Below are positions 3,656 to 60,420 of a DNA stretch of 64,000 nucleotides, piece by piece. Position 1 is the stretch's first letter. Every line of letters begins with the position of its first letter. The DNA comes from Nematocida ausubeli (lineage: Eukaryota), in NCBI RefSeq assembly GCF_000738915.1, contig NW_026515637.1, positions 682,001 to 746,000 of the forward strand. The letters run 5' to 3'. The notes under the pieces are model-generated. The model was not told the origin of the DNA. It did no database searches and saw only the letters and a list, made by a program, of their open reading frames with translations. A program made the translations under genes and the position numbers.

Positions 3656-5383
3656 TCAAGCAGTATTCCTCTTCATCAGTTCCCTTAATGTATTTATCTC
3701 TTTCTGGTGATCATCGCTTATTCTGTTTGATTCCCTTAATAGATCCCTGTATTCATCTATTTTTCCCCTTAATTCTGCAATAATATTCGAATATTCTTGC
3801 GTCCTGTCTACTTTAAGCGTAGGAATAGGCACTTCTGTTATAGTCACGTATTTAGTTATTGTTCCTGTTGTAATTAGTCTCTTAGTCTGTGTTATATACA
3901 CGGGTTTTACTTCTGTGATTATTTTCACTGTGGGCTTAAGGGTCTCTGTCAGTGTGACTGTCAGGAAGTTATTTTTCTGTTGGGTTTTTGTATTAATTAC
4001 AGTCAGTCGGGGGCGACTTGATATAATTGTAGAAAATATTGTCTGTATCTTTGTTTTTTTTTCTGTTTTTGTTTTAGTTATGGTTTCTGTTACGGTGTGA
4101 TTTATTTTAATTGGTCTTTCCACTGGGATACTTATTGTCTTAATTACTGTCACTGGCTTCATGGTTATTTTCTTTGTGGCTTGTGGTTTATGGACATATT
4201 CTGTCTTTGTGACTGATCTGGTGATGGAAATCACTTCCGTAGAGATAATTGGAGTATTTTTTGTTATAGTGAATATTTTACCATTTTCTGTTGTATTTGG
4301 TCTATTATAGCCCATATTAGGTCTACTAAGGTCACTTCCTGTTGTATTTGGTCCACTATTCTGCATATTAGGCGGGATATTGTTATTTCCTGTTGTATTT
4401 GGTCCATTATAACCCATATTACGCGGGATATTGTTACTTCCTGTTGTATTTGGTCTACTATTCTGCATATTAGACGGGTTATTACCATTCTGCATATTAT
4501 TTGGTCTACTAAGGTCATTTCCTGCTATATTTGGTCCACTATTCTGCATATTATTTGGCCCATTATTCGGGTTATACCCGGGCACACCCGAATATTTTGA
4601 TTTTTCAAAATTTTCAGGTTTTTCAAAAATTTCCTTATGCGGTAATATAACCCTAACGGTTTTCACCTTATTATTTGAATCATGAAATTCAACAAGAACC
4701 CCAGAATCATTCACAAGTGGCTTAACATTAATGTAATCCTTGTATAATGTAGGGTGCACCTGCACTGTCTTAACAGAAGTTGTTGTATTTGTTATATAAA
4801 TAGGCTTAGGCGTAATTATGCTTGTTATAACCTTAGTCTCCACATGAATCACAGGCTCTGCCGTTACACTCACCCGAACTGTAGATAAAATTGGCGGTTG
4901 AGTTATAACCTGAATACTTTTGACCGTTACAGAATGCATACTTGGTACAACAGTAATTGTCTCAATATTTGTTACTTTTAAAAATTCCGTTATTATTTTT
5001 GTATTTGTAACAGGAATTGGTGTAACTGTAACTGTACGCTTTCTTTCCACAGTAACTGGTACATTCTGCAATACTGTAGTTAAATACGTCCTAATTGTGT
5101 GCCTTGTCTTTGTCTTAGTCTGGGTTACAGTGGAGTAGTCTGTCTCTGTTACGTATATAATCTGCTTAGGGCCAACTCGGGTTACAATCGGGTTATATCG
5201 GGTTATAATAGGGTTATATCGGGTTATAATCGGGTTATTGTAATTCTGCCGCATACATAATATAGCACATACACCAGATGGGTTTACACAAGAGCATAAG
5301 GAATTTATACCAATTCCACGTACATATCCAGTGTACAGATATATTAGTCCACTTATATACAGTAAAATACGTAAATTATGCAT
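3656..5383 (-). CDS. Hypothetical secreted Thr/Val-rich protein with Asn-rich internal repeats and a C-terminal coiled coil
   Basis: 575-aa ORF. Hydrophobic N-terminus, Cys cluster LCSCVNPSGVCAILC, long Thr/Val/Ile-rich tracts, NMQNSGPNTTG repeats, heptad-like C-terminus. Confidence 0.75.
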   Translation of the reverse strand: MHNLRILLYISGLIYLYTGYVRGIGINSLCSCVNPSGVCAILCMRQNYNNPIITRYNPIITRYNPIVTRVGPKQIIYVTETDYSTVTQTKTKTRHTIRTYLTTVLQNVPVTVERKRTVTVTPIPVTNTKIITEFLKVTNIETITVVPSMHSVTVKSIQVITQPPILSTVRVSVTAEPVIHVETKVITSIITPKPIYITNTTTSVKTVQVHPTLYKDYINVKPLVNDSGVLVEFHDSNNKVKTVRVILPHKEIFEKPENFEKSKYSGVPGYNPNNGPNNMQNSGPNIAGNDLSRPNNMQNGNNPSNMQNSRPNTTGSNNIPRNMGYNGPNTTGNNNIPPNMQNSGPNTTGSDLSRPNMGYNRPNTTENGKIFTITKNTPIISTEVISITRSVTKTEYVHKPQATKKITMKPVTVIKTISIPVERPIKINHTVTETITKTKTEKKTKIQTIFSTIISSRPRLTVINTKTQQKNNFLTVTLTETLKPTVKIITEVKPVYITQTKRLITTGTITKYVTITEVPIPTLKVDRTQEYSNIIAELRGKIDEYRDLLRESNRISDDHQKEINTLRELMKRNTA

Positions 5384-5496
5384 GTACTCTATTTAGACCA
5401 CAAAATATACATGAAAATATATACAAAAACACTATGATACTGATTGTTTGTTATGGAAACCATTCCTATAAATACTTTCTTGTGACGCATAATATT

Positions 5497-6666
5497 ATGC
5501 AACCTCGGGTTATATCGGGTTTAATCGGGTTATTAGCCGTAAAGTATTCAGTCTGCAAATTTTCAGAAAAAAAACTCCAGGGCCTGGAGATGACAGACAC
5601 AGCAGCCAGACTCTACAATGGGATCAAAGAAAATAATGAATGGTCCCTCAGAAATGGCAATTCAGGATCCATTGTAAACTTCAAAAACAAGAATACCCAA
5701 GAGGATGAGTGGTCACTAGAAATCACTTTCAAGGTCCCTACCTTAAAATACCCAGAATTCGCAGGAATTTACGCCTGGTACACAGAAGACCCAGTGAGAC
5801 ACGGGGGATTCAAAGGCGCAAAAGGCAAATTCAACGGGATAGTGGCAGGATTGGAGTTCATTGGCAAGGGAGTAGATATAATTGTATCTGTAAATCATGG
5901 TGAAACTGACTATACAGAATTAGCCCCAGATACAATCGAACTAAAAGACAGTCCAGACCCAAATATTTTCAAAGACAAAAATACGTTAACCCTGAAAATA
6001 ATTTCAACAGAAAAAAATTTCAAGATAGAAATATACGATAAAGATAAAAATCTCATATATGATAGGGTAAGATATACGCAAATGGCAGAAATTAGTAGTA
6101 GACTATCAGGAAAGTACTTTGGATTAACCACAGATTATGCAGCCTCTGTTAAGAATGCGTTTAAATTAGTCAGTGCCTCACTGTACAAAAGAGAAGAACA
6201 TCCAGAATATGACCCAAATGCATATAATGCAGATATAAATGAGACAATCCCCAGGTTACCACATGAAATAGACCCTACTGAAGATATGCAGCACATTATA
6301 TCTGGGATAGAGCATCTTACAAAGTATTTACGTATTGTGATGGGTGACCCACAAGGAAAACCCATTGCAGATAATGTAATGTACGTTAAAAAGGTGACTA
6401 ACTTCATGGTTGCGCATATATTAGAGGTAAGGGATGGGCTTAAGTCGTTAATAGATGTGACCAAGAAGCATGCCCAGCAGGAAGAGGGTCACAGGCAGGA
6501 ATTGTTCTATTTAGTGCAGAACATGAATATAAAACTAACTGAAATGAATAAGAAAGGTCATAATATATCTGTAACTGCCATGATATCAATGGGATGTGGG
6601 TTATTTGCCGTTGGATTCCTGTTAGGCAAGAGATTCTCACCAATCAAGAAGATGTCACTGCACTAA
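5497..6666 (+). CDS. L-type lectin ER-Golgi cargo receptor (ERGIC-53/VIP36/Emp46-47-like)
   Basis: Signal peptide from the ATG at 5497 (the ORF track's upstream extension overlaps the neighbouring gene). Lectin-like beta domain (EWSLEITFK, AGIYAWYT, FNGIVAGLEF, YFGLTT), coiled-coil stalk, single C-terminal TM and a di-lysine tail KKMSLH. Confidence 0.75.
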   Translation: MQPRVISGLIGLLAVKYSVCKFSEKKLQGLEMTDTAARLYNGIKENNEWSLRNGNSGSIVNFKNKNTQEDEWSLEITFKVPTLKYPEFAGIYAWYTEDPVRHGGFKGAKGKFNGIVAGLEFIGKGVDIIVSVNHGETDYTELAPDTIELKDSPDPNIFKDKNTLTLKIISTEKNFKIEIYDKDKNLIYDRVRYTQMAEISSRLSGKYFGLTTDYAASVKNAFKLVSASLYKREEHPEYDPNAYNADINETIPRLPHEIDPTEDMQHIISGIEHLTKYLRIVMGDPQGKPIADNVMYVKKVTNFMVAHILEVRDGLKSLIDVTKKHAQQEEGHRQELFYLVQNMNIKLTEMNKKGHNISVTAMISMGCGLFAVGFLLGKRFSPIKKMSLH

Positions 6667-6667
6667 T

Positions 6668-6707
6668 GGAAGTGAAGGAAGTGAAGGAAGTGAAGGAAGT
6701 GAAGGAA
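6668..6707 (+). repeat. 9-bp microsatellite (GGAAGTGAA)x4 right after the stop codon
   Basis: ggaagtgaaggaagtgaaggaagtgaaggaagtgaaggaa. Confidence 0.9.
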
Positions 6708-7869: not shown

Positions 7870-10107
7870 ATGAAAAAAGAATACTTCACTATAATACTAG
7901 CTATATTGGGCCTTACACTCTCCCAGAAAAGAGTATCCTGTGCAGCGCCCTCTACTGAGCGTATAGTCCAAATTGCACGCCATAATATCACAGAACAACA
8001 ACAAAAAAACCTTTTTATAACGGCAAAAAATCATAAAACAAAAATTTTCTCAAAAGACGCAAATAATCTAGCCTGGAACCTTTTCATTGACTTATGCTTC
8101 CATACAGAACAAGAAGATGAAAAGACCATCCCAGATTTAGTCTGGAATTACAGCATAAATAGAACAATCACAGAATACAACAAGATTAAGCCTAAGAATA
8201 AGACTAAAATAACAGAATTTTCCAAAAAATATTTTAAAAAATCAAAATCTGATATAACCCGATATAACCCGATTATAACCCGATATAACCCGAATTATAA
8301 AGAAATGCTAGCAGGCGTACGCCGTATATGGAAGGCACTAATTAAAAACCCAAATAAAAATAGAATGAAAAGCATAATTCCCCAAAGAAGGAATATAGTT
8401 GTCCCAGGGGGAAGATTCCAAGAGGCATATTACTGGGATTTCTTCTGGATGGAAAAAGGCCTAATTATATCTAAAGATGAAAAAACCGTTAAAAATATGC
8501 TAGATAATTTTGCAGACCAAATTAACGTATTCGGGTTTATTCCTAATGGCACCAGATGGTACTACACTAATAGGTCACAGCCCCCATACTTCACACAGAT
8601 GTTATTCGAGTCACTTGATGAATTTAAGAAAATCAGGGAAATTGTACGGACAGGCGGGGGTAGTCATAAAGTGAAAAGTACACCAGGAATAGAAAATATT
8701 TCAAAAAAGATAGATAAGCTAGGGATAAAAGATAATTTAAAAAAATTAAGAAAATTAACTGGAAGTGCAGTAATTAGTAAGGGCATTAAGGATATAACAC
8801 AAAATACACTGGATATTGAAGATAGTAAGGATATTCCATTGAGTAATGAAGATATAACGGAAAATACATTGAGCGGTGAAAATTTTTATAAAAATAATTT
8901 ACAAAAAACCGTTATAACTGAAAACACTGAAAACACTGAAGATAATCCACAAAAACCCGTTATAATCCAGCAACCCCTAATTAGAACGTATTACTCTGAG
9001 GCCCTTAATAATATCGATGTGAATATATCTAATTATAACCTAAATGCAGCAGATAAAGAATTTATTTTTTGGATAAAAAACAGAACCGTAAAAGTAAAAG
9101 ATAATTTAGGAAAATCTCACATACTTTTTAGATATAGCCCTGATACGGATAGCCCCAGACCTGAAATGTTTATCTCAGATTTAATTTCAAATGAAAATTA
9201 CAAGCTAATGGGTAATGGCACGTACTACAAGCACATCACGGCAGCCACAGAGTCCGGATGGGACTTCTCAAAAAGATGGAGAATTTTTGATGAAAAATCA
9301 AAAATGTACGGTTTTTTAAATACAAAAAATATAATTCCTGTTGATTTAAACAGTATTTTCGTTAAAAATGCACGTTTATTGCACCTGGCATACAAGAAAA
9401 AAGGCAAATACAACAAGAAAAAGGCAGAATTCTACCAAGCACAAGCGAATCAACTAGCAAATTCCATTGACACCTTAATGTGGGATGAAAATTCCAGCAG
9501 ATGGAGAGATATAATATTAGTGAAAAAAAAAGACGGTTATTTTTCAGAGAAAAAAAAAGACAAAGCATTCTACCACAGTGACTTACACCCATTATACATG
9601 GATATAGTGAATGACCCACAGAATAATATCCTAAATGCCAACAAAAAGTACATTTGGACGCATAATAATAGACTACCTTGCACTAGCACAAATAAATCAG
9701 AGATAACCCGGAATAACCCGATTAAACCCGATCAAAATCTAAGCATAAAATGCACCCTAGAAGATGCTGTATACAACGAACATATAAAGAATGATCAGTG
9801 GGATGGGGATAATGTATGGCCACCCTTAGTCCAATTGACTGTGGAATATTTAATACGCTCTGGTAATATATCACTGGCCAAGGAGGTTTCTGTCTCTTAC
9901 GCCCTGGAAATGCACAAATATTACAGTGTACATAATAGTCTACCTGAGAAAATAGAATACGTTAAGAATTCAGGTGAATATTCAGTGCAAGATGGATTTG
10001 GATGGAGCATAGGGGTGCTGCAATGGATGGACTACGTATTCGGGGAAGAATTAGGGAAAGAAGTGGACAAGAGAATACATGAAAATGCAGGAGGAAGCAG
10101 GGATTAA
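7870..10107 (+). CDS. Alpha,alpha-trehalase (GH37) with a predicted signal peptide
   Basis: Motifs VVPGGRFQEAYYWD, GFIPNGTRWYYTNRSQPP, PRPE, ATESGWDFSKRW, IPVDLNS, QWDGDNVWPP, GEYSVQDGFGWS; hydrophobic N-terminus. Confidence 0.95.
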   Translation: MKKEYFTIILAILGLTLSQKRVSCAAPSTERIVQIARHNITEQQQKNLFITAKNHKTKIFSKDANNLAWNLFIDLCFHTEQEDEKTIPDLVWNYSINRTITEYNKIKPKNKTKITEFSKKYFKKSKSDITRYNPIITRYNPNYKEMLAGVRRIWKALIKNPNKNRMKSIIPQRRNIVVPGGRFQEAYYWDFFWMEKGLIISKDEKTVKNMLDNFADQINVFGFIPNGTRWYYTNRSQPPYFTQMLFESLDEFKKIREIVRTGGGSHKVKSTPGIENISKKIDKLGIKDNLKKLRKLTGSAVISKGIKDITQNTLDIEDSKDIPLSNEDITENTLSGENFYKNNLQKTVITENTENTEDNPQKPVIIQQPLIRTYYSEALNNIDVNISNYNLNAADKEFIFWIKNRTVKVKDNLGKSHILFRYSPDTDSPRPEMFISDLISNENYKLMGNGTYYKHITAATESGWDFSKRWRIFDEKSKMYGFLNTKNIIPVDLNSIFVKNARLLHLAYKKKGKYNKKKAEFYQAQANQLANSIDTLMWDENSSRWRDIILVKKKDGYFSEKKKDKAFYHSDLHPLYMDIVNDPQNNILNANKKYIWTHNNRLPCTSTNKSEITRNNPIKPDQNLSIKCTLEDAVYNEHIKNDQWDGDNVWPPLVQLTVEYLIRSGNISLAKEVSVSYALEMHKYYSVHNSLPEKIEYVKNSGEYSVQDGFGWSIGVLQWMDYVFGEELGKEVDKRIHENAGGSRD

Positions 10108-12046: not shown

Positions 12047-12479
12047 ATATTGTATATATGGTGTATATGGGGTAATGAGTGTATATTGTGTGGTAATTGG
12101 TTATAATTAGGGTGCTTGTTTTAATGGAACTTTAATGGGATTCTGAGGTGTAATAATTGGGTCTCATGATTAAAATTGGTTAATATAGTGTATAATAGTG
12201 TATAGAGGTGTATATATGGGTATAATGGGGTATAACGGTGTTTTTAGTGTGTATTAAGGCATATTTATGGGGTTTTAGGGTTTCGGGTTATTTCGGGTTA
12301 TATCATGATAGAAGTGTTTAAAATGAAATGTATTTGTGTTATACGTATATATACGTGGATATACGTGAATATATCTGGGTATACATGGATATATCTGTAT
12401 ATTCTATTTGTCTTTATTTTCATGCAAGAAGTCTCTTTTCTCTCTCATGGAATTATTAATTTATAAACAAACAAGAGAA

Positions 12480-12780
12480 GGTGACTAATTGTATACGGGA
12501 ATATATGGGAATATATAGAGGGAGGAAATACTGTTGTAATTAGTCTATTTAGGATATATAGTAGTAATATACTGTTATATTTGTGACTAAATATTCGGGT
12601 TATTAGTAGGATACTGATGTAATTAATCATATACTGTTGTATCTGTGACTAACCATACTAATTATACTAGGACTATTAGTGGGTTATTATAATTAGTAGG
12701 GTACTGTTATATTTGTGACTAACTATACTTGGACTACTGCTGTAATTAGTCATACTCTGTTATATCTGTGACTAAATATC
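12480..12780 (+). repeat. Family B array
   Basis: CTGTTGTAATTAGTC / TGTGACTAA units. Confidence 0.75.
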
Positions 12781-13082: not shown

Positions 13083-14573
13083 ATGGAAAATACTCACTCG
13101 TATTCTCTTACACGGAAAATACTTCATGCCTTGGAGGATGACCTGGAAGGACTATTTAATCTACTGTCTAAATCTAAGAAGAAAGGCTTATTTATTCCTT
13201 CATCTATTCTGGTGCTAATTATAGAAGATAAAAAACCACTTCCCCCTTCAAAAGTTCTTTGCATGCGGTTGTTGCAAAGTAATTTGGAAATTGCAGAAGA
13301 AAAGAAAGAAATCTCTTATTTAGTGAGTAGTATGCGGTTTATGTTCCGGATATCAGAAATAATCAAAATAGATGCAGAAAATTGGGATGATAAAAATCAG
13401 AGTGAAATAATCCCTGGGAACACCCTGGGAATACTTGAGTGCATCTCGGATATTTTGGGGCAAGTGAATTTTCACAGGAAAGAGGCTATCTTGGATGTAA
13501 TGCAGCAAGCAGGCATATTCTTATTGATTAATCTGTGGTGTACACCTGGACTACTTAAATTCTACAATAATGCACTAGCACAGACTAATATTCTTGTTAT
13601 TTCTGATGGAAAATCTGAAGTATCAGGGAATAGTAGGAATGAAATTGGGACAGCCCGGGATAAAGTGAATACGCCTTATAGGATTCCTGTGGAAGAGTCT
13701 CTGTATAATAAAACCACAGTATTAGTGCACAGAAGAAGATCTGAATTCTTTATGCCAAAATATTTCAGAATGTACCCGGAGGTGCACACGGAGGCATACA
13801 GAAGAATATTCTCATTCCAGGATGAATATGAAATATTCCATAAATCACTTGTAAATTGGTGCAAAACAGCAGGAAATCTGAAGGAAATTGAATTTGTGTG
13901 CATCTCCCATTTAGACCACCTGTCGACTAAGGTGGAAAATGAGACGTACGAAAATGAAGTGATTTTTTGTCTGGGAGTGCAATTCTATTCTGCTGTAGAG
14001 AATACTTTTGAGGAAGGAGATGGGAGACTATTAAAAAGCTATGTGAAATTCATTAAGAAATGCAGGGAAGTTAAGAATCCTGTGATTAAAGGGACTTCTT
14101 CTGTGGCTGCGAATAGGATTACCTTGCAGGCTGGAAAGTATTTAGTGAATAAGATTATTTCCCCTGGGAAAGAGACCAGAAATAACCCGAAATTAGAAAT
14201 ATTCAGGCAGAAGGCAGAATTAGTTGTAGGCTTAAGTGCCCTCTGTGATATATTTAATGAGTTCGGATTGCACTCTGGCTTCCATAAAATAATCGAGAGA
14301 GAAAGTGGCAGGATCTTGGAACTATTGGAGATCCAGCCAGAAGAAGAAATAATCGTGCACTGTACGTCTATTATTCGTGTGCTTAGTGTCCTTGAAGGAA
14401 TTCCAATTTCTTTGTTTTCTCCTTCGAAATTGTCTCTTGTCCTGTGGGTATTAGAGAATGTTGAAATTTCCGACAAAAAAGCAAAAAAGTGGCTAGACGC
14501 ATACATGCAGGAAATATCATCCATTTATAATCCAGCCCATGAGAACTTCATAGCCAGGTCACTTTGCTTCTAG
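13083..14573 (+). CDS. Hypothetical protein, probably helical
   Basis: 496-aa ORF with CCCC before the ATG; no recognisable motif. Confidence 0.7.
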   Translation: MENTHSYSLTRKILHALEDDLEGLFNLLSKSKKKGLFIPSSILVLIIEDKKPLPPSKVLCMRLLQSNLEIAEEKKEISYLVSSMRFMFRISEIIKIDAENWDDKNQSEIIPGNTLGILECISDILGQVNFHRKEAILDVMQQAGIFLLINLWCTPGLLKFYNNALAQTNILVISDGKSEVSGNSRNEIGTARDKVNTPYRIPVEESLYNKTTVLVHRRRSEFFMPKYFRMYPEVHTEAYRRIFSFQDEYEIFHKSLVNWCKTAGNLKEIEFVCISHLDHLSTKVENETYENEVIFCLGVQFYSAVENTFEEGDGRLLKSYVKFIKKCREVKNPVIKGTSSVAANRITLQAGKYLVNKIISPGKETRNNPKLEIFRQKAELVVGLSALCDIFNEFGLHSGFHKIIERESGRILELLEIQPEEEIIVHCTSIIRVLSVLEGIPISLFSPSKLSLVLWVLENVEISDKKAKKWLDAYMQEISSIYNPAHENFIARSLCF

Positions 14574-17259: not shown

Positions 17260-18360
17260 ATATTTATGCTATAGCTAGTCTAAGTTATTTTTAAGTTATA
17301 TTCGGGTTATTTTGAGTTATATGCCATTTTAGGCGCATTGATTTATTGTATGGGAATAATGCATGCAGAGACAAAGAAACTGCAGTAGTGCTAGATCTAT
17401 TCATAGATACAGTGTGAGGGTTGTTAATTTTGAGTGTCATGTTATATTGGATATTTCGAGTATTTCTGTTTATAAACTCATTTGTGCATATACTTGTCTA
17501 TATTCTTACAGAAAAGTAGTTCTAATACAGTTAAGACATAACTGTACGGTGGTCATTGCATGCAGAAGGCCATTTATTGGTTGAGTCTGAATATATGCCT
17601 GAACATACCTATCCGAAATAAATGACTAAAACTAACTGCACTGAATATTTGTTGTTTACACTAATAATTCGGGTTATAGTATGCAGCCTGATATATGCAT
17701 GTGTCTCTGTATATTTCTGCTTTTTACTCACTTGGATTATATTGGATTTGTGTTTTTCAATATAAATCCTCAAAAATAAAAGCCTTCATATATAATTTTA
17801 TTGTGAATGAGTTTTATTTAAATACAGATTAGAGTAATGAAAATAGTAATATTCTGCATATTTTCAAGAACCTGTCTACAAAAGCAAGCAAGAGTGGTAC
17901 TAAAAGGTTTTACTACTGGAAAAGATACTGCTGCAGATTTAGATAAATTCCAGGTGGGCAGACCCAATATACTAGCAGTATTTCATGAAGATATAGACAA
18001 ATATAACCAGAATTATCATAGATATGGTTCTTGTATGCGCATTGCCACTAGAATACAGGCTATGCCTCTACTTAAAACACCAAAATTTGCATTTATAAAT
18101 GTTATCAAACAGAAGGACATGTTTATATTTAGGATACATTTGTATTGCATGCTTTCCACCCACATGACTTGAGGCAGTGCATTTATATATTTATATGGCC
18201 TAAATTATGCCCTACTAAAACCTTCTGTTTTTACGAAAATATTTCTTAAATTAAATAGAACCAAATAGCCACACTCTACAAAAACACACCACAGTCATCT
18301 GGCTGCATGTAACCAGAAAGTAGCCCGACGTAAAAAACTCAGTTTATTGATACATCCCGA

Positions 18361-19662: not shown

Positions 19663-19932
19663 TGCAAAAAGAAAAACAAAGAAATTAATATATTCGGGTT
19701 ATTCCATGTCATTCGGGCTATATCGGGTTATGCCGGGCTATAGCTTTGGGTTATGCGAAAATTACCCAGGACAAACCACAACCCAAAGGCATGAATTAGC
19801 CAGATACTATTTGTAGCCAGATTGAATTCGGGCTATATTGGGTTATAGCCCAAATAACCAGAAAATTAGCCATATACGATATAACCCGAATAAAAAGGCC
19901 TTCTTACAGCCTTCTATTTACAGTCTGAGCGT

Positions 19933-21660: not shown

Positions 21661-22073
21661 GCTAGCAATAAATTCAGATTATATTTAAAACTAATAGAAT
21701 ATCCTGTAGACCATGCAGAAGGTTTAAATAAATTCAGAAACATACATGTACCCCATAAGTACATACTAATCTACACTTTGCAGCGAATTTAAAGAGTGTT
21801 TTTACTCTTACACTAATAACACGATGTAGCCCTAATACTCTTGTATCTATTTGCATTTCCGTGACTATAACTGAATATAAGCTGTATACTTTCTATGTGG
21901 CTATCAAATAGTGCTTTTTACATAACTAGCTTAAATGTGCTTAACTTTAACTGAAAAATAACCCGAATTCCGTCACCTAAAAATAATCTACTTTCTAATG
22001 CTTATTCCTTCTATGCACTCCAAATATACTCCGATTCCTTCTATCTTATTTCTTTTATTTTTATTTTCAATAC

Positions 22074-29371: not shown

Positions 29372-29385
29372 TTTTACAAAAATAA

Positions 29386-42900: not shown

Positions 42901-44731
42901 AGTCTTCAATTAATTTATGATTATTTAATGTGCTTCCATCAGAAAGGTAGAAGAACATCTTATCCGCATGCATTGGGAGTGATGCATTCTTGAAGCCTAT
43001 TGTGTCATAACCCTCTATCTCTGATAGGCCATCACAATATTGCGTAAAGAATTCCGTGTCGTGAATTATTTCTGGGAATCTCTGCTTTCCCGGGATCTTA
43101 TTCGATGAGATCTTTTTTATGGGCTTAAGACCCTTAGACGATGATAGAATTCCTTGCAGCACCTTCAGATGCTCTCTGTCATGCGTTTTCGAGTTTAACT
43201 GGTTTTTCCTAAATGGATTATTATTATTATTCATATTATTATAAATATCCAAAAGAAAAGAGTATTCTTTGATTGAATGCAAAAATTCGTAAGTGAAGGC
43301 TTTAAAACTGTTTCTTTTTGTGATTCTACGAAAACCCTTTAAATTAACTGCCTGCAAATTATTTATCTCCGGGTAAAAGCCAGAATCAGATGGCTTATAA
43401 TTCGTGTATATTGTATTTATGTATATGCGTATATTGTTAATTAAGTCTTCATTCTCTGGTCCTGTCATTTTCATGCGGTTTATAAGGGTCTGGTATATTG
43501 TCACAGTAGAATGTCCTTTTCTCACCCTGTGCCTTCTATTTATCGGGCTTTTCTCATGCTTTTTCAATATGCCCTTTGTAGCAGGCGTATAAGAGTCTAT
43601 TCTCCCTATCATAACTCTATCTTTAGACGGGAATATTTCAACAAAATGAATTATTGCTGTTTTTCCGTTATTTTTTATCTCTTCAATTATAACCGTTTTA
43701 TTTAGGTCTAATTCAAACGTACTCTGCACCAATATATTAGGTTCTTCTTGGCCCTGCTTACTGTTGAAGTAATTATTCGTGCTTTCTATTAGGGTAGTAT
43801 TTATGTGGTGTAGATTCGGATTTTCAGCCTTAGTGTGCACATACACTGGGTCTACGGCTGTCATATGCACCTTATTACAGCAGCCCCATAGGCCCGTATA
43901 TATTTGCGTCTTAGATGTGTCTACAATTATATACGGGTTATTTTTGTCACTAGACACCATATAATCAGGCGCAGAGACAGAATTACCTGAAATCACAAAG
44001 GAAGTGATCATGGGAAAGGTGTTTTTTGTTGATTCTTTATCCATTACTGTAAGAATGTGCGTAGAAGGGTCTTTTGATTTACTTATAATATATTCCATCC
44101 CATCTAACGGTATTTTCACTAGACCCAAGCCCGAAAAATAAGAATTCACAAGGACATGGTTTCCCTTATAGGGATATTGTGTGTTTTCTGGGATATCTAT
44201 GGAAATATTATCAGATGTGTATTTCTTCCATATATTCATGGTCCCTGGAGTGTTCTGCTGGTTTATTTCGCCTTCCAAGACAATAAACGGGTTATCTCGG
44301 GTTATATCGGGTTTTGAAATATATTTCTCACACGCGTTAGTGGAGTGTGTTAAGGAAAGCCATTCTTGGAATATGATGGGCGCCTTATGGAATGTCTTCT
44401 TAATTGGCTTAACATGGCTTAGTGTCATATTATATGCAGTGCCATATTTAAATTGGGATTTATGCGGGTTATGGTGTTTTCTTGCAGTACTTCTGGCTAT
44501 TCGAGTTTTAATCAGGTTATCTCCGGTTATCTCGGGCGTGATTGCCGGGTTATCAAGGAGTTTTCTGCTAAAATACCTTGTATCTTCATTTATTCCGAAT
44601 ATCTGACTATTTCCTGATAGATTAGTATGCGTACTCACTGCATCCGGGTGCACGCCCTGCAGTGGCTGGAATAATTCCAGCGAGGTCAGCATTAATCCGT
44701 ATATAAAACTAAAAATATAATTAAAATTCAT
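39971..44731 (-). CDS. Large (1586 aa) lineage-specific, probably secreted protein
   Basis: Long ORF, hydrophobic N-terminus, internal 10-aa Ser/Asn repeats; no recognisable domain. Confidence 0.85.
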   Translation of the reverse strand: MNFNYIFSFIYGLMLTSLELFQPLQGVHPDAVSTHTNLSGNSQIFGINEDTRYFSRKLLDNPAITPEITGDNLIKTRIARSTARKHHNPHKSQFKYGTAYNMTLSHVKPIKKTFHKAPIIFQEWLSLTHSTNACEKYISKPDITRDNPFIVLEGEINQQNTPGTMNIWKKYTSDNISIDIPENTQYPYKGNHVLVNSYFSGLGLVKIPLDGMEYIISKSKDPSTHILTVMDKESTKNTFPMITSFVISGNSVSAPDYMVSSDKNNPYIIVDTSKTQIYTGLWGCCNKVHMTAVDPVYVHTKAENPNLHHINTTLIESTNNYFNSKQGQEEPNILVQSTFELDLNKTVIIEEIKNNGKTAIIHFVEIFPSKDRVMIGRIDSYTPATKGILKKHEKSPINRRHRVRKGHSTVTIYQTLINRMKMTGPENEDLINNIRIYINTIYTNYKPSDSGFYPEINNLQAVNLKGFRRITKRNSFKAFTYEFLHSIKEYSFLLDIYNNMNNNNNPFRKNQLNSKTHDREHLKVLQGILSSSKGLKPIKKISSNKIPGKQRFPEIIHDTEFFTQYCDGLSEIEGYDTIGFKNASLPMHADKMFFYLSDGSTLNNHKLIEDWYKVMTYDVYPDNNDLYSDSHTTDVLGTKNNETKSKPVITRSKPESDYRKNNQKYTNLLSVHASYKLSSIVNKMRTLENLDLAHTLIKSHKIGSKIFSKLMKPYIVNVLSFYQMSMNLKYDSFRQFVTPITETLQEYDFNELTVLLTDKLKDFSLYQARPDLSAPKPQNTQKKIAKTRDNPKGKSAAIILHKMVTIIHKTIGVMDLFSSHYLKYLSAVANQVIDPNYNIEMQKLENMKASLRNDNLITYLLVANNMDINHNLKIVLTETLIPMQTNLLILANNALNIISKNIYAQLHRRSPADQEDLLVFMEISKNILLKEWMHQVSEYSNSIKIFNHLQASIIQGDNNPSETGNILTDNLLDKYMNIRASAVTSPKLYDWEPVPTIVISEDNLSSNINKRDLFMTELKANSTRIYNSPISEFLLESIKKTVQSEECAEYKAEIQSDLIKQYEEQISNAPDTAGKIIKRVTRNNPYISQGSRVLTSHMYNVGEMRHVYIFKDSPHDEKPAASESTTTKPIQTNYNSVPDKTKYNSKTISSDSLPKANPNSNSPQPNYNSNPSKTNSNSNPTMTKSNSNPSQPNYKSNPSKTNYNSNPTMNNPTSSPSAAVLNVLPVIPQSNLTHSEISGVIDELVDSSIMERLSESILTDIMSSSNITLPMLFHVPAYANGKYRMYSENNRVIPTILHSMITFSGKVQNYKVSQDDTNIFTNATYYNEAKKYAINLFSDVTNRIQAAATYIGPEDKQFNLNRYKIAKVLEHLYTIYEKEIHGIFDGIPKESIPRCSMVLPPGMCIKILQKNIAIINNIKGHINNISKYHSELNTPAILAEKLHSSIIPVHVTKFLEFFGEKNPSKMDANSDLLQSLLLVYNNPDNQNIIKFFESTDYNISKGQEKIEAFLMFFYHLHGKTLAELHAKMMEKSLCVEDKLSYNYGKNNEEFINLDNIKNHAELISKNVNELSANIRRKIESDRSVND

Positions 44732-47352: not shown

Positions 47353-47382
47353 ATATAACCCGGAATATATAATTAAATGCCG

Positions 47383-50746: not shown

Positions 50747-51212
50747 CAGTGAAGGGTAGTTAAGGGAAGTGAAGGAAGTTAAGAATAAAGTGTCATTTAT
50801 ATTTGGGTGTATTTGAAGTATATTTAGTTTTGAAGTATATTTATATTTGAAGTATATTTATTAACGGATATTTGATTATTAACAGGTTTTTATTAATGGG
50901 TATTTATTAACGAACATTTTTATTCAATCAGTATATTTAACAAGTATATTTAACGAATATTCTTATCTATAAACCACTTATTAACCACTTATATCCAACA
51001 GACAACATATATATTTAATATATTCTTATTCTCTAATATCCTCGTTATATCTAACAATAATCTGATACCCACATGATATCTAACAATAATCCGATATAAC
51101 CCGAATTATTTCTATCCTTTTGTTACTAAGACATTTCCCTCTGTGCGTGCGTGAGAAGAAGGCGGCTGTGCAGTTGCCAAATGGGATAAATTTTCTTTTC
51201 TTTCAAAAAATT

Positions 51213-54200
51213 ATGAGTGCACATGGGAGTGAACAAGCAGGCCTGCCGTATACACCACAAAGCACACAGTACAATCTATTCACTGAAAGATTCCTTAGTG
51301 AGAAGGGACTTAATAGGCACCACATAGAATCATTTAACCATTTTGTAGAACGAGAAATAAAAACCGTTCTGCGCACAAATAATTTCATAGATTCAGATGT
51401 AGACTCTGCATTTTACATGAAATACACAGATATCAGGGTAGAGCCACCTTCAGTAGAAGAGAACATGGTAAAAAGATACATTACCCCAGAGGAATGCAGG
51501 ATCAGAAATATGACATATTCCGGGGACATAGTAGTAGACGTAGAATACACCAGAGGGAAAGACATAATTTCATCAAGAAATGTGGTTGTAGGGAAAATGC
51601 CAATTATGCTGGGTAGTAGATTATCCTTGCAGCAGAAAGATTTCATGGAGAGTAACATAGGAGTAATAAGCAGTAATATAAGACAAATTAATAACCCGAA
51701 GTACACAAGACCAAAGAATGAATGTCCATACGATATTGGTGGGTACTTTATATGCAAGGGCGTAGAGAGAGTGCTTTTAATGCAGGAGCAATTAGCAAAG
51801 AACAGAATCTTAATTGAAAATGACTTCAGAGGGGATCTGTGCGCTGTAGTCACAAGTTCTTCATTGGAGAGAAAAAGTAAGACAAAAGTAGTCATGAAGA
51901 AGAAGCTATTATATCTAGCACATAACTCACTGACTGAAGATGTACCCTTGAATATAGTCATGAAGGGCATGGGTATCACAACAGACCTAGAGATAGATAT
52001 TCTTATTGGCCAGCCTACCCCAAGCATAGTACACATAAGGACAGAACTAGAAGCACTTGCATGGATTGGCAGCAGAATAAAGACAAGGGCAGGTGGAATT
52101 GAAGAAGCACGCTTATTCCTTTGTGATATAATCCTGGCACACATCCCAGGGATAGGCACAGATATGAGAAGAAAAGCAGAATATTTGTCAGTTATGGCAA
52201 GAATGCTCATAGACACAGCAGATGGAAATGTAGATTCATTACAGAATGATAAGGACTTTGTAGGAAATAAAAGGATAGAACTCACAGGGCAAATGCTTTC
52301 CTTGCTCTTTGAAGATCTTCTGAAGAGGCTTAACACAGAAATTAAAAAAGCACTTGACAGAGTACTCTGCAAAAGAGCCAGAGCACAGGAGATGGATGCC
52401 CTGCACTTCCTGGTGATGAATAGGGGTCTAATTACAACAGGCTTATTAAGGGCTATTTCCACTGGATCATGGTCTCTTAAGAGATTTCGCATGGAAAGGG
52501 CAGGAATCACACAGGTTCTCACTAGACTCAGTAGACTCTCAGCAATTGGAATGTGCTCCAGAGTCTCCTCTCAGTTTGAGAAAACAAGAAAGGTCTCTGG
52601 GCCACGTGCCCTGCACTGCTCGCAGTGGGGTGTCTTCTGTCCTGCTGATACACCAGAGGGAGAAGCCTGTGGTCTTGTAAAGAGTCTTGCCATGCTCACT
52701 GAAATAACCCCAAATGAAGACGAAAGTGGAGTTATTTCTGCCCTGTCCTTCTTGGGGGTTGAAGATATCTCGGCTATCTCACCTGGTGACTTAGAGGGTG
52801 CAAGCAAGTGCTGGGTAAACGGAGTCATAATCGGAACATGCAGTGACCCAGAGAGAATGGCACGAGAACTCAGAAATGTCAGAAGAAGTGGCAGAATACC
52901 CAGCACAGTAGGAGTGTGGGTGAATAAAGACCTTTATATCTCAACGGAAACAGGCAGACTCACTCGTCCCCTAATTATCGTAGAGAACAGCCTCCCTAGG
53001 CTCACAAGAAATCACATACGCCTGCTAAGGGAAGGGTACAAGACAGTGAATGACCTGTTGAATGAAGGACTAATTGAATATATAGACCAGAATGAAGCAA
53101 AGAACTCGCTGATTGCCGTATGGAGCACAGAGATAACAGATAAAACCACACACTTGGAGATAGATCCAGCTGCCATCCTGGGGTACGTTGCAGGCGTAAT
53201 ACCGTATCCACATCATAATCAGTCACCAAGAAATACGTATCAGTGCGCCATGGGGAAGCAAGGTGTAGGGGTCACAGGCGTAGACCAAAGAAGAAGAATG
53301 GACGGAGCAAACTTCTTCATGGTCAACCCGCAGAGACCACTTGCTGCCACACGAGGCATGGAAATCATCAAGTACAACGACCTGCCGGCAGGACAGAACC
53401 TGACAATTGCTGTGATGAGTATGTCAGGGTACGACATTGAAGACGCACTGGTCCTGAATAAGGCATCGATTGACAGGGGAATTGGAAGGGCCCTTTTATT
53501 TAAGACGCACGCCCTCTCTTTGCGCACGTACCCAGGGGGATCTGCTGACACAATCGTAGGGGAGGGAATTCCACCCCCTGGGATGAAGGTCCAGGAAGGG
53601 ACTACGTTCATTGACAGAAGGACACCCATGGGTAGCAAGGCAGGCGCAGTGTACAGGGGCCTGGATGGTGCATCCGTTGATAAAACGGCAATTATGCGGA
53701 CAGGAGATGACTTAATTACAATTAAAACTGTCTTGAAGGAGCACAGAATTCCCAGGATTGGGGACAAGTTCAGCAGTAGGCACGGACAGAAGGGAGTAGT
53801 TGGTCTAATCCTACCACAGGAAGATATGCCCTTTAATGAGCTAGGGATGTCCCCTGACTTAGTCATGAATCCTCACGGATTTCCATCCAGAATGACAGTC
53901 GGTAAAATCCTGGAGCTAGTCACTGGGAAGTGCATCTCAAATGGATCAAAGAAATTAACGCAATATGCAGCCACGGCCTTTGGGGGAGTTACAGCGCAGT
54001 CAATTGCTGATGAACTTGTCTCCTTAGGGTACAGTGAGACAGGGAAGGAGACCTTGGTCTGCGGTACATCTGGGGAGCAGATTCCCGTGCGAATATTTTT
54101 CGGCCCTGTCTTCTACCAGAGACTGAAGCACATGGTGACAGACAAGATGCACGCCAGGGCACGAGGACCCAGGGCAGTTCTGACTAGGCAGCCAACAGAA

Positions 54201-55334: not shown

Positions 55335-55655
55335 AGGAATCACTGCACAGGCATACAGCACACAAAATATCTACCCACACACCACAGTGCAAAGTGCCCC
55401 TACAGTAAATAAATACTTACTTTCCTTAGCTTTATTTATTCAGATCTTTATAAAACTTGCAAAGAAATATGGTCACAGGGTAAATAAAATTGATTAGATT
55501 AGGATATATCTGGGATATAGGAAGATTTCGGGTTATCTGGCTATATATCCCCTTGCATGCAATAATCCCTGCTTATTATTCTATTTCCATTTTATGTTTA
55601 ATTTAAGCCTCTTTTCACTCTATCTTTAGAAAGCTCTTTTTTCTGTCTCTTGCAA

Positions 55656-56201
55656 CTAGCTTCTTAAGAAGAATATGTATATGAAGCAAAGAATGAAGAT
55701 CGCAGTGAGTGCTTTGAACAGTCTGTAGTCTGTGATGTATCTGTTGGATATTTGGTCTATAACCCTATCTGATACCCCTAAGTACTGCAGACCTTCCTCT
55801 AACTTCTGTCTGCTGCCTTTTAGTATGCCCCTTTGCTTCTCTATTGAGCTAAGAGAGTGCGAGGCTATTTTTATGTACTTATTGAGTTTGTCTGTGTTTC
55901 TGGTGAGATGGCAGTCTGTTTCAGGTAGCCTGTGCTTCTCTCTTGTGCTATCTGAGCTGTACGCCATTTTTAGTATGTTTATGCGCCTGCTTAGTGCCTG
56001 CACTCTTGCCCCTAGCTGGGAAAGTATGCGCACCCCGTCTGCAGACCTTTGAATTACATCTTTCTGCGCCTCCATCTCTTGCTTAAGGTCTGAAAGAAGG
56101 TCCTCAAGTGTTTCAATGCGGGTGCTGTGGGAAAGAGCGCTTTCAATGTTGTTTGCTTTTTCTGTAATTCTTTTCACTGCTTGCTCCCACTCCATATCCA
56201 A
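55656..56201 (-). CDS. Qb-SNARE, Bos1/membrin/Gos1-like
   Basis: SNARE heptads SLSSIEKQRGILKG...LGVSDRVIDQISNRYITDYRLF followed by a C-terminal TM anchor. Confidence 0.8.
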   Translation of the reverse strand: MDMEWEQAVKRITEKANNIESALSHSTRIETLEDLLSDLKQEMEAQKDVIQRSADGVRILSQLGARVQALSRRINILKMAYSSDSTREKHRLPETDCHLTRNTDKLNKYIKIASHSLSSIEKQRGILKGSRQKLEEGLQYLGVSDRVIDQISNRYITDYRLFKALTAIFILCFIYIFFLRS

Positions 56202-56207
56202 ATAAAA

Positions 56208-56561
56208 TTATTCTGTATACAGTGTATTCTTTTGTTTTGGATTTTCCTTCAGAGGCTGCCTTGCCTTTTTATTTGCAGGCTTTGCATCTTCTTCCTTTAG
56301 GGCAGCCAGGCCCTGCTCTATCTTCTGTAAAATCTGTAGGAGAAGTACTTTTTGTTCCTCCAGGATTCTTTCTGAGTCTGACTGCATTCTGTACCGTAAG
56401 TACTGGTGCTTTAAGGACTCTCTAAGAAGGGTGTTTTGCTTCTCTTTTAGGCCTTTTATCTCTTCCTTTAGTTCTGTGTTTTTTGTAGCCAAGTCATATC
56501 CCTGGGGAATGTCTTCTTCCATTTGCTTCTTTCTTTTGAACTTCATTTCTACTGAATGCAA
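56208..56561 (-). CDS. Small coiled-coil hypothetical protein (start may be ATG 56522)
   Basis: Heptad-rich ORF ending 6 bp before the SNARE ATG. Confidence 0.6.
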   Translation of the reverse strand: MHSVEMKFKRKKQMEEDIPQGYDLATKNTELKEEIKGLKEKQNTLLRESLKHQYLRYRMQSDSERILEEQKVLLLQILQKIEQGLAALKEEDAKPANKKARQPLKENPKQKNTLYTE

Positions 56562-58312
56562 CTTTCTATTTATACGTGCCTATATATTAAGGTAAATTTC
56601 TGTATAAAATTGCATGGTTAGACTACAGTGCACCAGATAATAAAACTTGGATAAATGGACTTCTACAATATTAAGTCTTACTTCATGCACTGTCTATTTA
56701 CTTTTATATTGTTTATTTCACTGCTATCTGGTAATTTAGGCTATTCTGTTGGATATTTCTATATAACTTGAAGCTAAGTACTTTTGTACTGCAACTTGCA
56801 GTCTTTTTCTCTAGTGAGCTATTTTAGTGTTATTATATACCACTTTTGTTAATACTTTCTCATAATTATATAGCTTAAATTAACTAGTTTATTCATCTTT
56901 GGGTTATTTTGCCACAGTACTGCAATTAACTGATGTCTTAATTATGTGATTTCGGGTTATTCGGGTTAAATTAAAGTATATTTATTGAGTGCTTATGCTT
57001 CACTGATACTAATATCTTGATGTTCCTCTGAAGGACTTATATTCTTGTTACATATAAAGAATAATAGCTTAGTAATAGTCTGCAAGAATATGCTAATTGC
57101 AGTAAAATCTCACACTATTATTATAGGGTCACAAGAGAATATGAATAATATTTCTGGAAGATTCTTCGTATATCAGAAGCCTACCATACTAAATTGTATG
57201 TAAACCTTAATGGAAGCAGTATATCACCAACAGTAATAAACATATTCAACAAAAAGACAAAAAAATCACAGTCTCCAAGAACATTTGACTAAGTGATAGC
57301 AATAAACCTCTCTTGACAATTCGGGTTATATTGGGTTTTAGACTACTATCTCTTGGCTGAAATATTACACTTTTTTCAGCACTTCACTAAGTATATAGTA
57401 TTGTTTTATTTTTACTTGGATATTCCTATGAATGCAAAAATATTTTAGTACTTTTGCGTATATTTATGTCTTATTTCGTGCGATCTGAACCCTTTCGAAA
57501 ATTAATTTATTCTGTGCATGCTGAAGAGTTTGAAAATTTAGAGATCAAAAGAAGCTTCTATAAATAGAGAAGTTAAACCAAAAGAAGCAAGAGAATATCA
57601 TATGAAGGAATGTGCGTATTATTCGGGTTATATCGGGTTATATTTTAGTGTGATAGAAAGGAGGGTAGACTCGATTAAAGCATGTACTTATGGAAGTGTT
57701 AAATGTGTATTCGAGTTATATTCAAATGTCGGGTTAAATTGAAGAGAATATTCGGGTTATATCGAGTTATATCTTGATTTGGTCATTTATTCAGGGGCTG
57801 TTAGTCTCTTTATGAAGTGAAATAGGGGTATGCAAGAAGGGGATATTTTTATACAAAAATACACTGTAGCCGGATGACCAGAGAAAAGAGACAAAAAAGA
57901 GAAAACTAGTGTACTAGCCAGTTTCTCTATAAAAATGAGTTTATTTCAACTATAAGAGTGATATAGAAGTATCCTTGCATTATATCTAGTTATATTGAAG
58001 ATTTGGTGTCTTCTTGGCACAGAGTATTTCATGTGGGAGTAACTAGAGTCAAAGACTTTGCAAACACTCAGACAGTATGAAATAAAAAGAGTTAAAAGGA
58101 ATTTGAATAACCAGAGTCCATAAAACACAGTTGCACACTAATGTATGGAGTGGTTTAAGCTATGCAGTGTAAATAATGGATTGTTGCGCACTCAAGAAAG
58201 TCCCAATAATCTGTGCGAAAAGACAGAAAGAGACTGCATAAATAGAAAGGAAAGTACTGGAAGCAAAGTGATATAAACTAGGCTTTATTCTTTATGAGCT
58301 AGTGCTGCTGTA

Positions 58313-59089: not shown

Positions 59090-59964
59090 GCTGGGGTCTA
59101 AAAATAAAAATAATTCTATAGTTTTGCTAAAAATAGAAACCACCAAGTACAGCCAGAAATGCAGCACATAGCTGCAGTGTGCTAGCATATTCGTGTATTT
59201 AGCACGCAACAGTACGTATGCCTTTGTATTTACATTCTTTTGCACGACTCTTAAGACTGAATATAAATCAAATTAGAAATTCACTTAGAAAATAATTTCG
59301 GGTTAAATTATGGTTAAATCCTTATGAATTTGCCATTATAACAGTTGTAGTGTATGTATGCAGGAAGAAGTAGGTGCCATATTGCAGTGTATGCAATTGC
59401 AGCTTAAATTGAAGCTGTAAAATATTTGCACTAATAAGAAAGAGAGCAAAAGAAAATTTAAGCAGTGTATTTTATGCTAATTCGGGTGTATAAGAGACAA
59501 AACATGTAATTCAAGTGAAATATAGCTAGTTCTGGGTATTTGGGTTATATCATCAGAGAATGGTGCAAATTCAGTGCGTCCAAGAGAAGTACATGGGTAT
59601 CATGAACGAGTGATATTTTCAGTAGTAGACTAGTGTTAGTGCTTATTCATTACGTAATTATAAGAATGTAAACACTTTACATTTATACTAGCAGAGCATA
59701 GTCCGAATACTTTCTGTGTAAAGTGTGGTTAGTGAGTGGTTTACGTGTGTAGCTGCAGTAAAATAAAATTCGCACTTTTCTGCTCTGGATAGAAGAGTTT
59801 TAGTGCAGACAAGTATGAAATAATCGGAAGAAGCATAAAAAGGCAGAATGTTCTAAAACAATAAAAAAGTTAAGAACAAGAAGCACTTATTAAAATGGCA
59901 CCAGGAACTGCACATCTTCACAATAAAATTGTGGTAAAAATCCCACTTTCATTAATTCTGTGAC

Positions 59965-60121
59965 ATTCCTCGTATATCAGAGACTGACTATAAAATAGTA
60001 AGAACAATACAATACAAGAAAAGGCGGAAGATGTCAGAAGGAAGAAATACATCCATCAAGTACACAAAAGGTCAAAGTCACCAACCGAAAAAATATGATA
60101 ATAAAACTCCCTGGACAACTA
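59965..60121 (-). repeat. ~160-bp dispersed repeat, copy 2 (inverted)
   Basis: Reverse complement of 54559-54723. Confidence 0.9.
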
Positions 60122-60420
60122 CACTCTCTATTCTAGACTATTATTTATATTCTCACACAGAAATTTTCTGTTCCTTTTAGCATACAAATAATCTAAATTT
60201 TATCACATACCTATAGATACTCTTTTACAGCTAGAATAATACAATCCTGCTGTCTAAAGATGCAATCAGAATATCTAAAGATACAAATTGGATATAACCT
60301 GATATAACCCGAATAAAAGTTATTTATTTTATTCACATTAATAAATATGCAACTGTGAGCAATTTAACCTTTTTCTTTATAACTGCCAAGGGTATAAATT
60401 GAGAAAAAATTAATTTACCC

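What the first reader, a model, noticed from the sequence alone, without database searches (positions are those of the whole stretch)
4567..60313. Window-wide dispersed DNA motif ATAACCCGA/TCGGGTTAT, in both intergenic and coding DNA
Seen: several dozen copies by eye, on both strands (e.g. near 4567, 5177, 5505, 8254, 9703, 12283, 14182, 17302, 19694, 19881, 21958, 22984, 26602, 27111, 28579, 30535, 33269, 33477, 33741, 35825, 36348, 36968, 37074, 38202, 38573, 42359, 42779, 44297, 51096, 51691, 55528, 56953, 57322, 57623, 57752, 60305), plus many near-variants. A CG-containing 9-mer should be rare in such AT-rich DNA. Established: it contains GGGTTA (a permuted TTAGGG telobox) and resembles the yeast Reb1 site TTACCCG, both bound by Myb-type proteins. 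Inference: it may be a genome-wide protein-binding or chromatin-organising signal (nucleosome positioning, SMC loading, origin or pairing), analogous to bacterial DNA uptake sequences that overrun coding DNA. I am not aware of a description in microsporidia.
Basis: partly seen in the sequence, partly recalled or inferred. Interest (0 to 1): 0.9.

Follow-up and report, generated by a model that had tools for sequence, protein, structure and literature searches.

The report
Helix-phased motif overruns microsporidian genes
In this stretch of the genome of Nematocida ausubeli, a microsporidian parasite of nematodes, one 9-letter DNA word occurs about once per 1.3 kb, often doubled one helical turn apart, both upstream of genes and inside them where it has rewritten stretches of protein; it is likely the docking site of an unidentified chromatin-organising protein.

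Summary
ATAACCCGA occurs 50 times against 0.27 expected. The window is Nematocida ausubeli. Twenty copies are in coding DNA: 17 sense copies against 0.42 when proteins are kept and synonymous codons shuffled. The word is often half of a head-to-tail repeat: 13 of 32 isolated copies have a second half-site exactly 10 bp upstream (background 1.1%), and arrays step 10/11 bp. Eight of 25 intergenic clusters lie 30-130 bp before a same-strand ATG (1.5 expected). Coding copies sit in variable protein segments, are shared with other strains, vary in copy number, and are not seen in orthologs from other species. Best reading (0.5, inferred): the site of an abundant factor that binds consecutive major grooves, like Sap1, Reb1 or Tay1, with weak selection and duplication spreading it into genes as bacterial uptake sequences do. 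Rivals: intrinsic nucleosome wrapping, neutral drive, an unusual telomere repeat. No protein, telomere or whole genome could be tested. It may be one of five N. parisii intergenic elements in a supplement I could not read.

The parts
3554..3562 (+). exact copy embedded as one unit of an intergenic 21-bp array
4567..4575 (-). sense copy in the CDS 3656-5383 (unknown protein)
5177..5238 (-). six-unit array with 10/11-bp steps (4 exact copies) in the same CDS, coding NNPIITRYNPIITRYNPIVTRV; shared with other strains
5505..5533 (-). three-unit array, antisense in the first codons of a lectin-like gene and 122-150 bp upstream of the ATG at 5383 on its own strand
8251..8300 (+). four exact copies (steps 10, 11, 10) in trehalase, coding DITRYNPIITRYNP in a variable segment
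9703..9736 (+). three-unit array in trehalase; two other strains' proteins carry an extra 10-residue (30-bp) unit
12283..12603 (-). exact dimer (12283, 12293) and single copy (12595) upstream of the ribonucleotide reductase gene
14172..14190 (+). degenerate plus exact half-sites in CDS 13083-14573, coding ETRNNPK; colinear with a different peptide in the Nematocida sp. ERTm5 ortholog
17302..17677 (-). two single copies, 60 and 427 bp upstream of the XPF/ERCC4 gene
19694..19742 (-). two exact copies and variants 31-60 bp upstream of the proteasome ATPase gene
19881..19889 (+). copy 43 bp upstream of the divergent gene at 19933; orientation flips across this divergent promoter
21958..21966 (+). 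copy 107 bp upstream of the SNAP gene
22984..22992 (-). intergenic copy opposite to both neighbours
26592..26610 (+). degenerate plus exact half-sites 59 bp upstream of the ATG at 26670
27111..27119 (-). antisense copy in CDS 26670-27497
28579..30543 (+). two single intergenic copies (28579, 30535)
33270..33749 (.). three copies: 33270 (-; 121 bp upstream of the WD40 gene), 33477 (+), 33741 (-; straddles the MADS-box gene's stop)
35825..37082 (.). five copies in the 2.4-kb gap before the KIX/Med15-like gene: four + (35825, 36348, 36409, 37074), one - (36968)
38203..38581 (+). two sense copies in the KIX/Med15-like CDS, each with an upstream half-site
42358..44313 (-). three sense clusters (42358, 42779, 44297) in the 1586-aa CDS, which has 13 sense hits within one mismatch and none antisense
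51086..51104 (+). dimer 108 bp upstream of RPC2; a T>C difference at 51090 makes it a perfect dimer in two other runs, and one run lacks 10 bp at 51070
51691..51699 (+). sense copy in a variable segment of RPC2, with no indel against N. parisii
55528..57773 (-). six intergenic copies (55528, 56952, 57321, 57623, 57633, 57752), all on the strand of the flanking minus-strand genes
60294..60312 (+). degenerate plus exact half-sites 108 bp upstream of the ATG at 60421

Best explanation
ATAACCCGA is the strong half of a roughly 20-bp head-to-tail repeat with one-helical-turn spacing, and is likely the binding site of an abundant, still unidentified sequence-specific chromatin factor that would sit in consecutive major grooves on one face of the DNA. 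Shown: the enrichment, the 10-bp half-site, the 10/11-bp arrays, the position 30-130 bp before start codons in the gene's direction, and the coding copies in variable protein segments. Inferred: at promoters the factor would act like a general regulatory factor (Sap1, Reb1, Tay1/Teb1 type), clearing or phasing nucleosomes. Also inferred: weak selection for extra sites anywhere, plus duplication in 10/11/21/30-bp steps, would explain the spread into tolerant coding DNA and the recurring ITR(Y/N/D)NP peptides. A Myb-type fold for the factor is a guess from the TAACCC core.
For: Word specificity: 50 exact copies, but 0 for each change at the third base and 0 for ATAAGCCGA and ATAACGCGA. Variants are not strand-symmetric as plain CpG decay would be: intergenic C>A at position 7 has 10 copies, the mirror G>T at position 8 has 1, and ATAGCCCGA has 6. 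Half-site: 13 of 32 isolated copies match 6 or more of 9 letters at offset -10, none at -11, background 1.1%. 67 of 95 same-strand neighbours within 9-80 bp are in phase at 10.4 bp vs 29% background. Position: 8 of 25 intergenic clusters at 30-130 bp before a same-strand ATG vs 1.5 expected (p 7e-5; range chosen after seeing the data); 9 of 29 genes have a same-strand copy within 200 bp upstream vs 1 of 29 opposite. Coding copies: 17 vs 0.42 under synonymous shuffling; 7 of 12 ITR tripeptides use exactly these codons although ACC and CGA are minor codons. All 4 sites I could align across species fall in the lowest 4-16% of conservation. Precedent: Sap1 has a Myb-type fold, and its crystal packing puts recognition helices one helical repeat apart for direct-repeat binding (PMC6053445, passages and introduction).
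Against: No binding protein was identified or testable. The 5'-weak/3'-strong asymmetry is 13 vs 2 among isolated copies but only 21 vs 13 (p 0.23) over all 10-bp pairs, and it reverses, not significantly, at 11 and 21 bp. Orientation is partly expected from composition: upstream sense strands have C 1166 vs G 704 and A 2088 vs T 1842, which by my arithmetic alone predicts about 4:1. The synonymous-shuffle null also gives about 4:1. 17 of 25 intergenic clusters are not in the 30-130 bp zone. A ~10-bp W/S periodicity and an excess of 10/11/20/21-bp duplications persist for other words, so phasing is not unique to this motif. Sites turn over between strains. A purifying-selection test failed because the difference table was cut (40 of 708 rows shown).
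Confidence: 0.5

Rival explanations
1. The word is the commonest letter pattern of an intrinsic nucleosome-wrapping code: an A/T half and a C/G half alternating every ~10.2 bp, selected for DNA bending with no dedicated reader.
For: WW and SS autocorrelation peaks at 9.8-10.4 bp and survives masking of the motif family in intergenic DNA (amplitude 0.032 to 0.026 for WW) and in CDS (0.020 to 0.017). Other 20/21-bp arrays with different words show the same phase. The unit resembles the mouse TATAAACGCC positioning repeat (recalled; 0 copies here).
Against: Equally W/S-patterned words are absent (ATAAGCCGA 0, ATAACGCGA 0). Arrays are 20-60 bp, far short of a nucleosome, and the periodic signal fades beyond about 100 bp. 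After masking, intergenic periodicity is carried by CC and CA more than TA or AA.
Confidence: 0.2
2. The motif has no function of its own and accumulates by molecular drive: biased gene conversion or repair in a diploid that favours motif-bearing alleles, amplified by duplications one or two helical turns long.
For: Exact-match runs at periods 10, 11, 20, 21 number 26, 24, 35, 26 vs 3-12 at the other periods tested, and many are not this motif. Strains differ by whole units and by decay.
Against: Drive does not predict the promoter-proximal peak or the flip of orientation across divergent promoters. It still needs a sequence-specific protein. No eukaryotic mechanism of this kind is known to me.
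Confidence: 0.13
3. The 10-mer (G-strand TTATATCGGG) is this species' telomere repeat, and the dispersed copies are interstitial telomeric sequences or teloboxes. This is compatible with the best explanation if the telomere protein doubles as promoter factor.
For: The unit has the shape of the Yarrowia-clade repeat TTNNNNAGGG with C for A (PMC7857110 passages). Units alternate 10 and 11 bp like heterogeneous telomeres. Eimeria has telomere-like repeats throughout its genome (PMC4199364 passages). I found no Nematocida telomere described.
Against: Reported microsporidian repeats are TTAGGG, TTAGG, TAGG and TTAG. Coding sites in RPC2 and CDS 13083 are colinear with orthologs, so no unit was inserted there. 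Depth over the dimer at 57623 rises only to 1455 from about 1030 in run X7, while true multi-copy repeats reach 8,800-14,900; this is weak, because contigs can drop pure repeats.
Confidence: 0.11
4. It is simply the known microsporidian CCC core-promoter signal in a longer, local form.
For: Nosema motifs TTTTTTTACCCC and ACCCTT share A/T-run plus ACCC and the gene's orientation. [quoted passage not shown]
Against: The CCC signal lies within about 20 bp of the ATG. Here 0 of 25 clusters are within 30 bp (0.5 expected, so weak), 40% of copies are in CDS, and the half-site repeat is not part of the published descriptions I read.
Confidence: 0.05
5. Sequencing or assembly artefact.
For: None found.
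Against: Copies keep reading frames, and the peptides recur in separately deposited strain proteins. Seven runs hold 75-99% of sampled words of 3400-13000, four of them from a study other than the possible source.
Confidence: 0.01

Closest known systems
Bacterial DNA uptake sequences (Haemophilus USS, Neisseria DUS)
   Same: A 9-10-bp word at about 0.8 per kb, 35-65% of copies in ORFs (here 40%), raised tripeptides, preference for poorly conserved residues (PMC2817400 abstract).
   Different: Eukaryote with no known DNA uptake; copies are head-to-tail at one helical turn and oriented with genes and promoters.
Fission-yeast Sap1 sites (general regulatory factor, Myb-type fold)
   Same: Direct-repeat binding with recognition helices one helical repeat apart; promoter regions (PMC6053445). 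Here TA(A/G)CC pairs with 5- and 6-bp gaps number 17 and 13 vs 2-3 for gaps of 3, 4 and 7.
   Different: The recalled Sap1 half-site TA(A/G)CG as a 5-bp-spaced pair has 0 copies. No Sap1 homolog could be sought. I know of no coding-sequence invasion for Sap1.
Reb1/Tbf1/Tay1/Teb1 telobox factors
   Same: TAACCC core (119 copies); upstream position; telomere-type proteins double as gene regulators (PMC7857110).
   Different: Reb1 word TTACCCG (recalled) has 3 copies; no tandem TTAGGG; the flanks AT- and -GA are fixed.
Microsporidian CCC-like promoter signal
   Same: A/T run followed by ACCC on the sense strand upstream of genes.
   Different: Lies 30-130 bp or more from the ATG rather than next to it, is longer and repeated in phase, and is common inside genes.
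Eimeria dispersed telomere-like and CAG repeats
   Same: A parasite genome whose simple repeats are spread through gene-rich DNA and shape proteins (PMC4199364 passages).
   Different: Those are microsatellite runs; here a 10-bp unit occurs mostly as single or double copies, in at least two cases without an indel against orthologs.

Membership tests
Bacterial DNA uptake sequence | Short word strongly over-represented in coding DNA over a codon-matched background | tested here: met
   17 vs 0.42 sense copies, (one 64-kb window only)
Bacterial DNA uptake sequence | Raised motif-coded peptides in poorly conserved positions | tested here: met
   ITR 12 vs 3.4, YNP 8 vs 1.4, NNP 18 vs 2.3; 4 of 4 alignable sites in the lowest 4-16% of conservation
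Bacterial DNA uptake sequence | Host is a naturally competent bacterium with a sequence-biased uptake machine | tested here: not met
   Host is the microsporidian N. ausubeli
Reb1 site | TTACCCG core (recalled) | tested here: not met
   3 copies vs 67 of TAACCCG; ATTACCCGA 0
Sap1 site | TA(A/G)CG direct repeat with 5-bp gap (recalled) | tested here: not met
   0 copies; the related TA(A/G)CC pair has 17
General regulatory factor site (Sap1/Reb1/Tay1 type) | Enriched upstream of genes | tested here: met
   8 of 25 clusters at 30-130 bp vs 1.5 expected
General regulatory factor site (Sap1/Reb1/Tay1 type) | Bound by a Myb-type protein that organises nucleosomes | not testable with these tools
   No genome held; no binding or chromatin data
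Interstitial telomeric sequence | Unit equals the chromosome-end repeat | tested here: inconclusive
   Telomere not available; no depth spike over a dimer in contigs is weak
Interstitial telomeric sequence | Arises by insertion of units | tested here: inconclusive
   No indel at the RPC2 and CDS 13083 sites; unit-sized gains in trehalase between strains
Microsporidian CCC-like signal | Immediately upstream (about 20 bp) of the ATG | tested here: not met
   0 of 25 clusters within 30 bp; nearest at 31 bp
Nucleosome positioning sequence | About 10-bp alternation of WW and SS dinucleotides | tested here: met
Nucleosome positioning sequence | High histone-octamer affinity or positioning in vivo | not testable with these tools
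   needs reconstitution or MNase-seq

The most novel reading that the evidence does not exclude
N. ausubeli has the first eukaryotic counterpart of a DNA uptake sequence: a helically phased 10-mer, possibly its own telomere repeat, that one chromatin or recombination protein has spread across the whole genome within this lineage, rewriting tolerant parts of many proteins into ITR(Y/N/D)NP peptides, including putatively secreted ones.
Probability: 0.2. Interest if true: 0.85.

Novelty: new variant of a known kind. Interest (0 to 1): 0.64.

Why it matters
Almost nothing is known about sequence-specific gene regulation or chromatin organisation in microsporidia beyond the CCC signal. A defined, oriented, 20-bp phased site is direct bait to find a master regulator in a C. 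elegans pathogen model. A eukaryotic DNA motif abundant enough to bias codon choice about 40-fold and to change tripeptide content would also mean that some apparently fast-evolving or lineage-specific protein segments in this parasite are by-products of a DNA-level constraint rather than host adaptation.

Tried and rejected
No whole genome was available, so there is no genome-wide k-mer count. Rfam and ARAGORN found only tRNA-Lys. A metagenome scan for the dimer gave 25 loci; none had dispersed copies: 21 had just the two matched copies and the other 4 had 3-7, mostly local tandem runs. Peptide searches for other proteins with the repeat gave only 4 N. ausubeli orthologs of the same gene and 48 representatives, of which one was that ortholog; of the 10 looked up, 3 carried names and none was Nematocida. 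So proteome-wide invasion is not shown. A strain-level selection test was not possible: tables were cut, and the array-rich left part of the window has no read data (one search covers 50960-64000 only). No RNA holder was listed; the guessed-RNA run gave contigs only. Even spacing was rejected (CV 0.94). An mRNA-level role is unlikely: 25 of 39 clusters are fully intergenic, many over 400 bp from a gene, and N. parisii UTRs are very short. G-quadruplex formation would fit only the two arrays with four or more G3 units; not tested. Four look-ups of earlier findings gave nothing on this genome and one unrelated bacterial note, not used. Ten paper searches listed no description of this motif; I saw only the top 40 of 279 and 40 of 1,239 hits in the first two.
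Full report
Organism and setting. The window is gene-dense, about 36% GC, with eukaryotic genes in single ORFs. Its trehalase is 97% identical to a Nematocida ausubeli protein, and the clusters of eight window proteins hold named N. ausubeli members. No whole genome is held, so all counts are for 64 kb and my own annotation of 30 genes (first ATG except for one gene moved to a later ATG; some starts may be wrong).

The observation. ATAACCCGA occurs 50 times; shuffles give 0.27. It is the top-ranked 9-mer, and the flanks extend it to roughly (A/T)ATAACCCGA(A/T). Twenty copies are in CDS, 29 intergenic, one on a stop codon. Collapsed within 70 bp there are 39 clusters, spaced like random points (CV 0.94).

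It is a DNA-level signal inside genes. Keeping each protein and shuffling synonymous codons gives 0.42 sense copies against 17 seen; the maximum in 300 shuffles is 2. The peptides are themselves raised: ITR 12 vs 3.4, YNP 8 vs 1.4, NNP 18 vs 2.3; TRxNP occurs 11 times in 6 of 30 genes. Conserved housekeeping genes (ribonucleotide reductase, proteasome ATPase, ribosomal S2/S5, SNAP, HSF) have no hit within one mismatch. The four sites that I could align with other species lie in the lowest 4-16% of conservation. At two of them (RPC2, CDS 13083) the nearest ortholog is colinear, so the site was gained or lost by substitution. TRxNP is absent from 15 orthologs of other species or unnamed relatives (0 in 10,874 residues). 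These three families were chosen because they carry the motif, so this shows non-conservation at these sites, not absence from other genomes. Among N. ausubeli strains the peptides are shared, with turnover both ways and an extra 10-residue unit in two trehalases.

The real unit is a phased direct repeat. Exact copies neighbour each other on the same strand at 10, 11, 20, 21, 29, 31, 32, 42 and 61 bp. Of 95 neighbours within two mismatches, 67 are in phase at 10.4 bp against 29% background. Of 32 isolated copies, 13 have a second half-site at exactly -10, 0 at -11 and 2 at +10. The asymmetry is not robust: over all 42 pairs at 10 bp it is 21 to 13 (p 0.23). Coding arrays stay in frame through 10+11 or 3x10 steps. 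Two of three DNA runs have a base that makes the dimer before RPC2 perfect, and one lacks 10 bp just upstream.

Position and direction. Thirty of 39 clusters point the way of their own or nearest gene (11 of 13 coding, 19 of 26 intergenic). Eight of 25 fully intergenic clusters lie 30-130 bp before a same-strand ATG (1.5 expected; range chosen after seeing the data), none closer than 31 bp. Upstream sense strands are C- and A-rich, which accounts for much of the orientation, although that skew is partly made of such phased C clusters.

Wider context. WW and SS dinucleotides oscillate at about 10 bp in intergenic and coding DNA even after masking the motif family, fading by about 100 bp. Duplications of 10, 11, 20 and 21 bp are far commoner than other lengths tested, and only 37 of 111 involve this motif. 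Two other families of 20/21-bp arrays fill several intergenic regions. The motif is thus the sharpest word within a generally phased genome region.

Beyond the window. In three DNA runs, contigs join two window sites with different motif letters between them, or run off into unrelated sequence at a site (tables 5c and 7). I read this as arrays at other loci; it is a hint, not a count. A metagenome scan found no contig with dispersed copies among 25 loci.

Mechanism. A fixed spacing of one turn, selective variants and a promoter-proximal, oriented peak are what a factor binding consecutive major grooves would leave. Sap1 is the closest structural precedent (PMC6053445, passages and introduction), but its recalled half-site pair is absent, as is the Reb1 word. 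An enrichment of 40- to 200-fold needs only weak selection per site (my inference), which fits the turnover between strains. I give this 0.5; nucleosome wrapping 0.2; drive 0.13; telomere repeat 0.11; CCC signal 0.05. The factor, its fold and its chromatin effect are all untested.

What is in print. Ten searches listed no description. PMC3514677 (passages and section 5) reports five candidate intergenic elements in N. parisii, including a modified CCC motif, in a supplement that is not held; this motif could be among them. PMC10393165 has no occurrence of 'motif', 'telomer' or 'intergenic' in its main text.

Verdict. Real, strong and apparently undescribed in this form. As a promoter element it is a new variant of a known kind; the uptake-sequence-like invasion of coding DNA in a eukaryote is the surprising part. 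Interest 0.64, held down by the single window and the unread supplement.

Noticed in passing
window 700-1200, 2500-3620, 6750-7730, 10105-10720, 12500-12780, 44820-45680: Two families of degenerate intergenic arrays recur: a 21-bp unit (CAAGACTTAATCCACTTAGTG-like) and a 20-bp unit (GACTAAATACAACA-like, with ACTAATTAGT palindromes). The 2500-3620 and 6750-7730 blocks share order and inverted halves; the 44820-45680 block encloses tRNA-Lys. They could be decayed non-autonomous elements, enhancers or centromere/origin DNA.
   Followed up: partly
window 47516-47842: A third phased array built on TAACCGTTTT with 10/20-bp period, upstream of the Spt6-like gene; contains a Myb-like AACGG core on the minus strand (recalled motif).
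   Followed up: no
window 54496-54770 and 59958-60122: Two inverted copies (86% over 166 bp) of a non-coding dispersed repeat; bin depth 5-15 times baseline in three DNA runs, so multi-copy in the genome; no Rfam match.
   Followed up: partly
window 60378-62679: 752-aa gene without Pfam match and with raised depth and many partial contigs, so likely a member of a large gene family.
   Followed up: no
window 11960-12260 and 1215-1460: Promoters made of C clusters every 10-11 bp on the sense strand without the exact motif, before ribonucleotide reductase and the gene at 1460.
   Followed up: partly
window 58313-59188: A guessed-RNA contig of the ribosomal S2/S5 gene ends at 59083, the position of an internal ATG, which suggests that the ORF's first ATG is not the start (contigs cannot fix a start).
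   Followed up: no
window 24938-25873: HSF DNA-binding domain fused to a response-regulator receiver (Skn7-like) retained in this reduced genome.
   Followed up: no
L012:9985-10180: Bacterial metagenome contig with three short local arrays of an 11-bp unit containing the same word, just downstream of what look like CRISPR-associated genes (not scanned); unrelated to the window.
   Followed up: no
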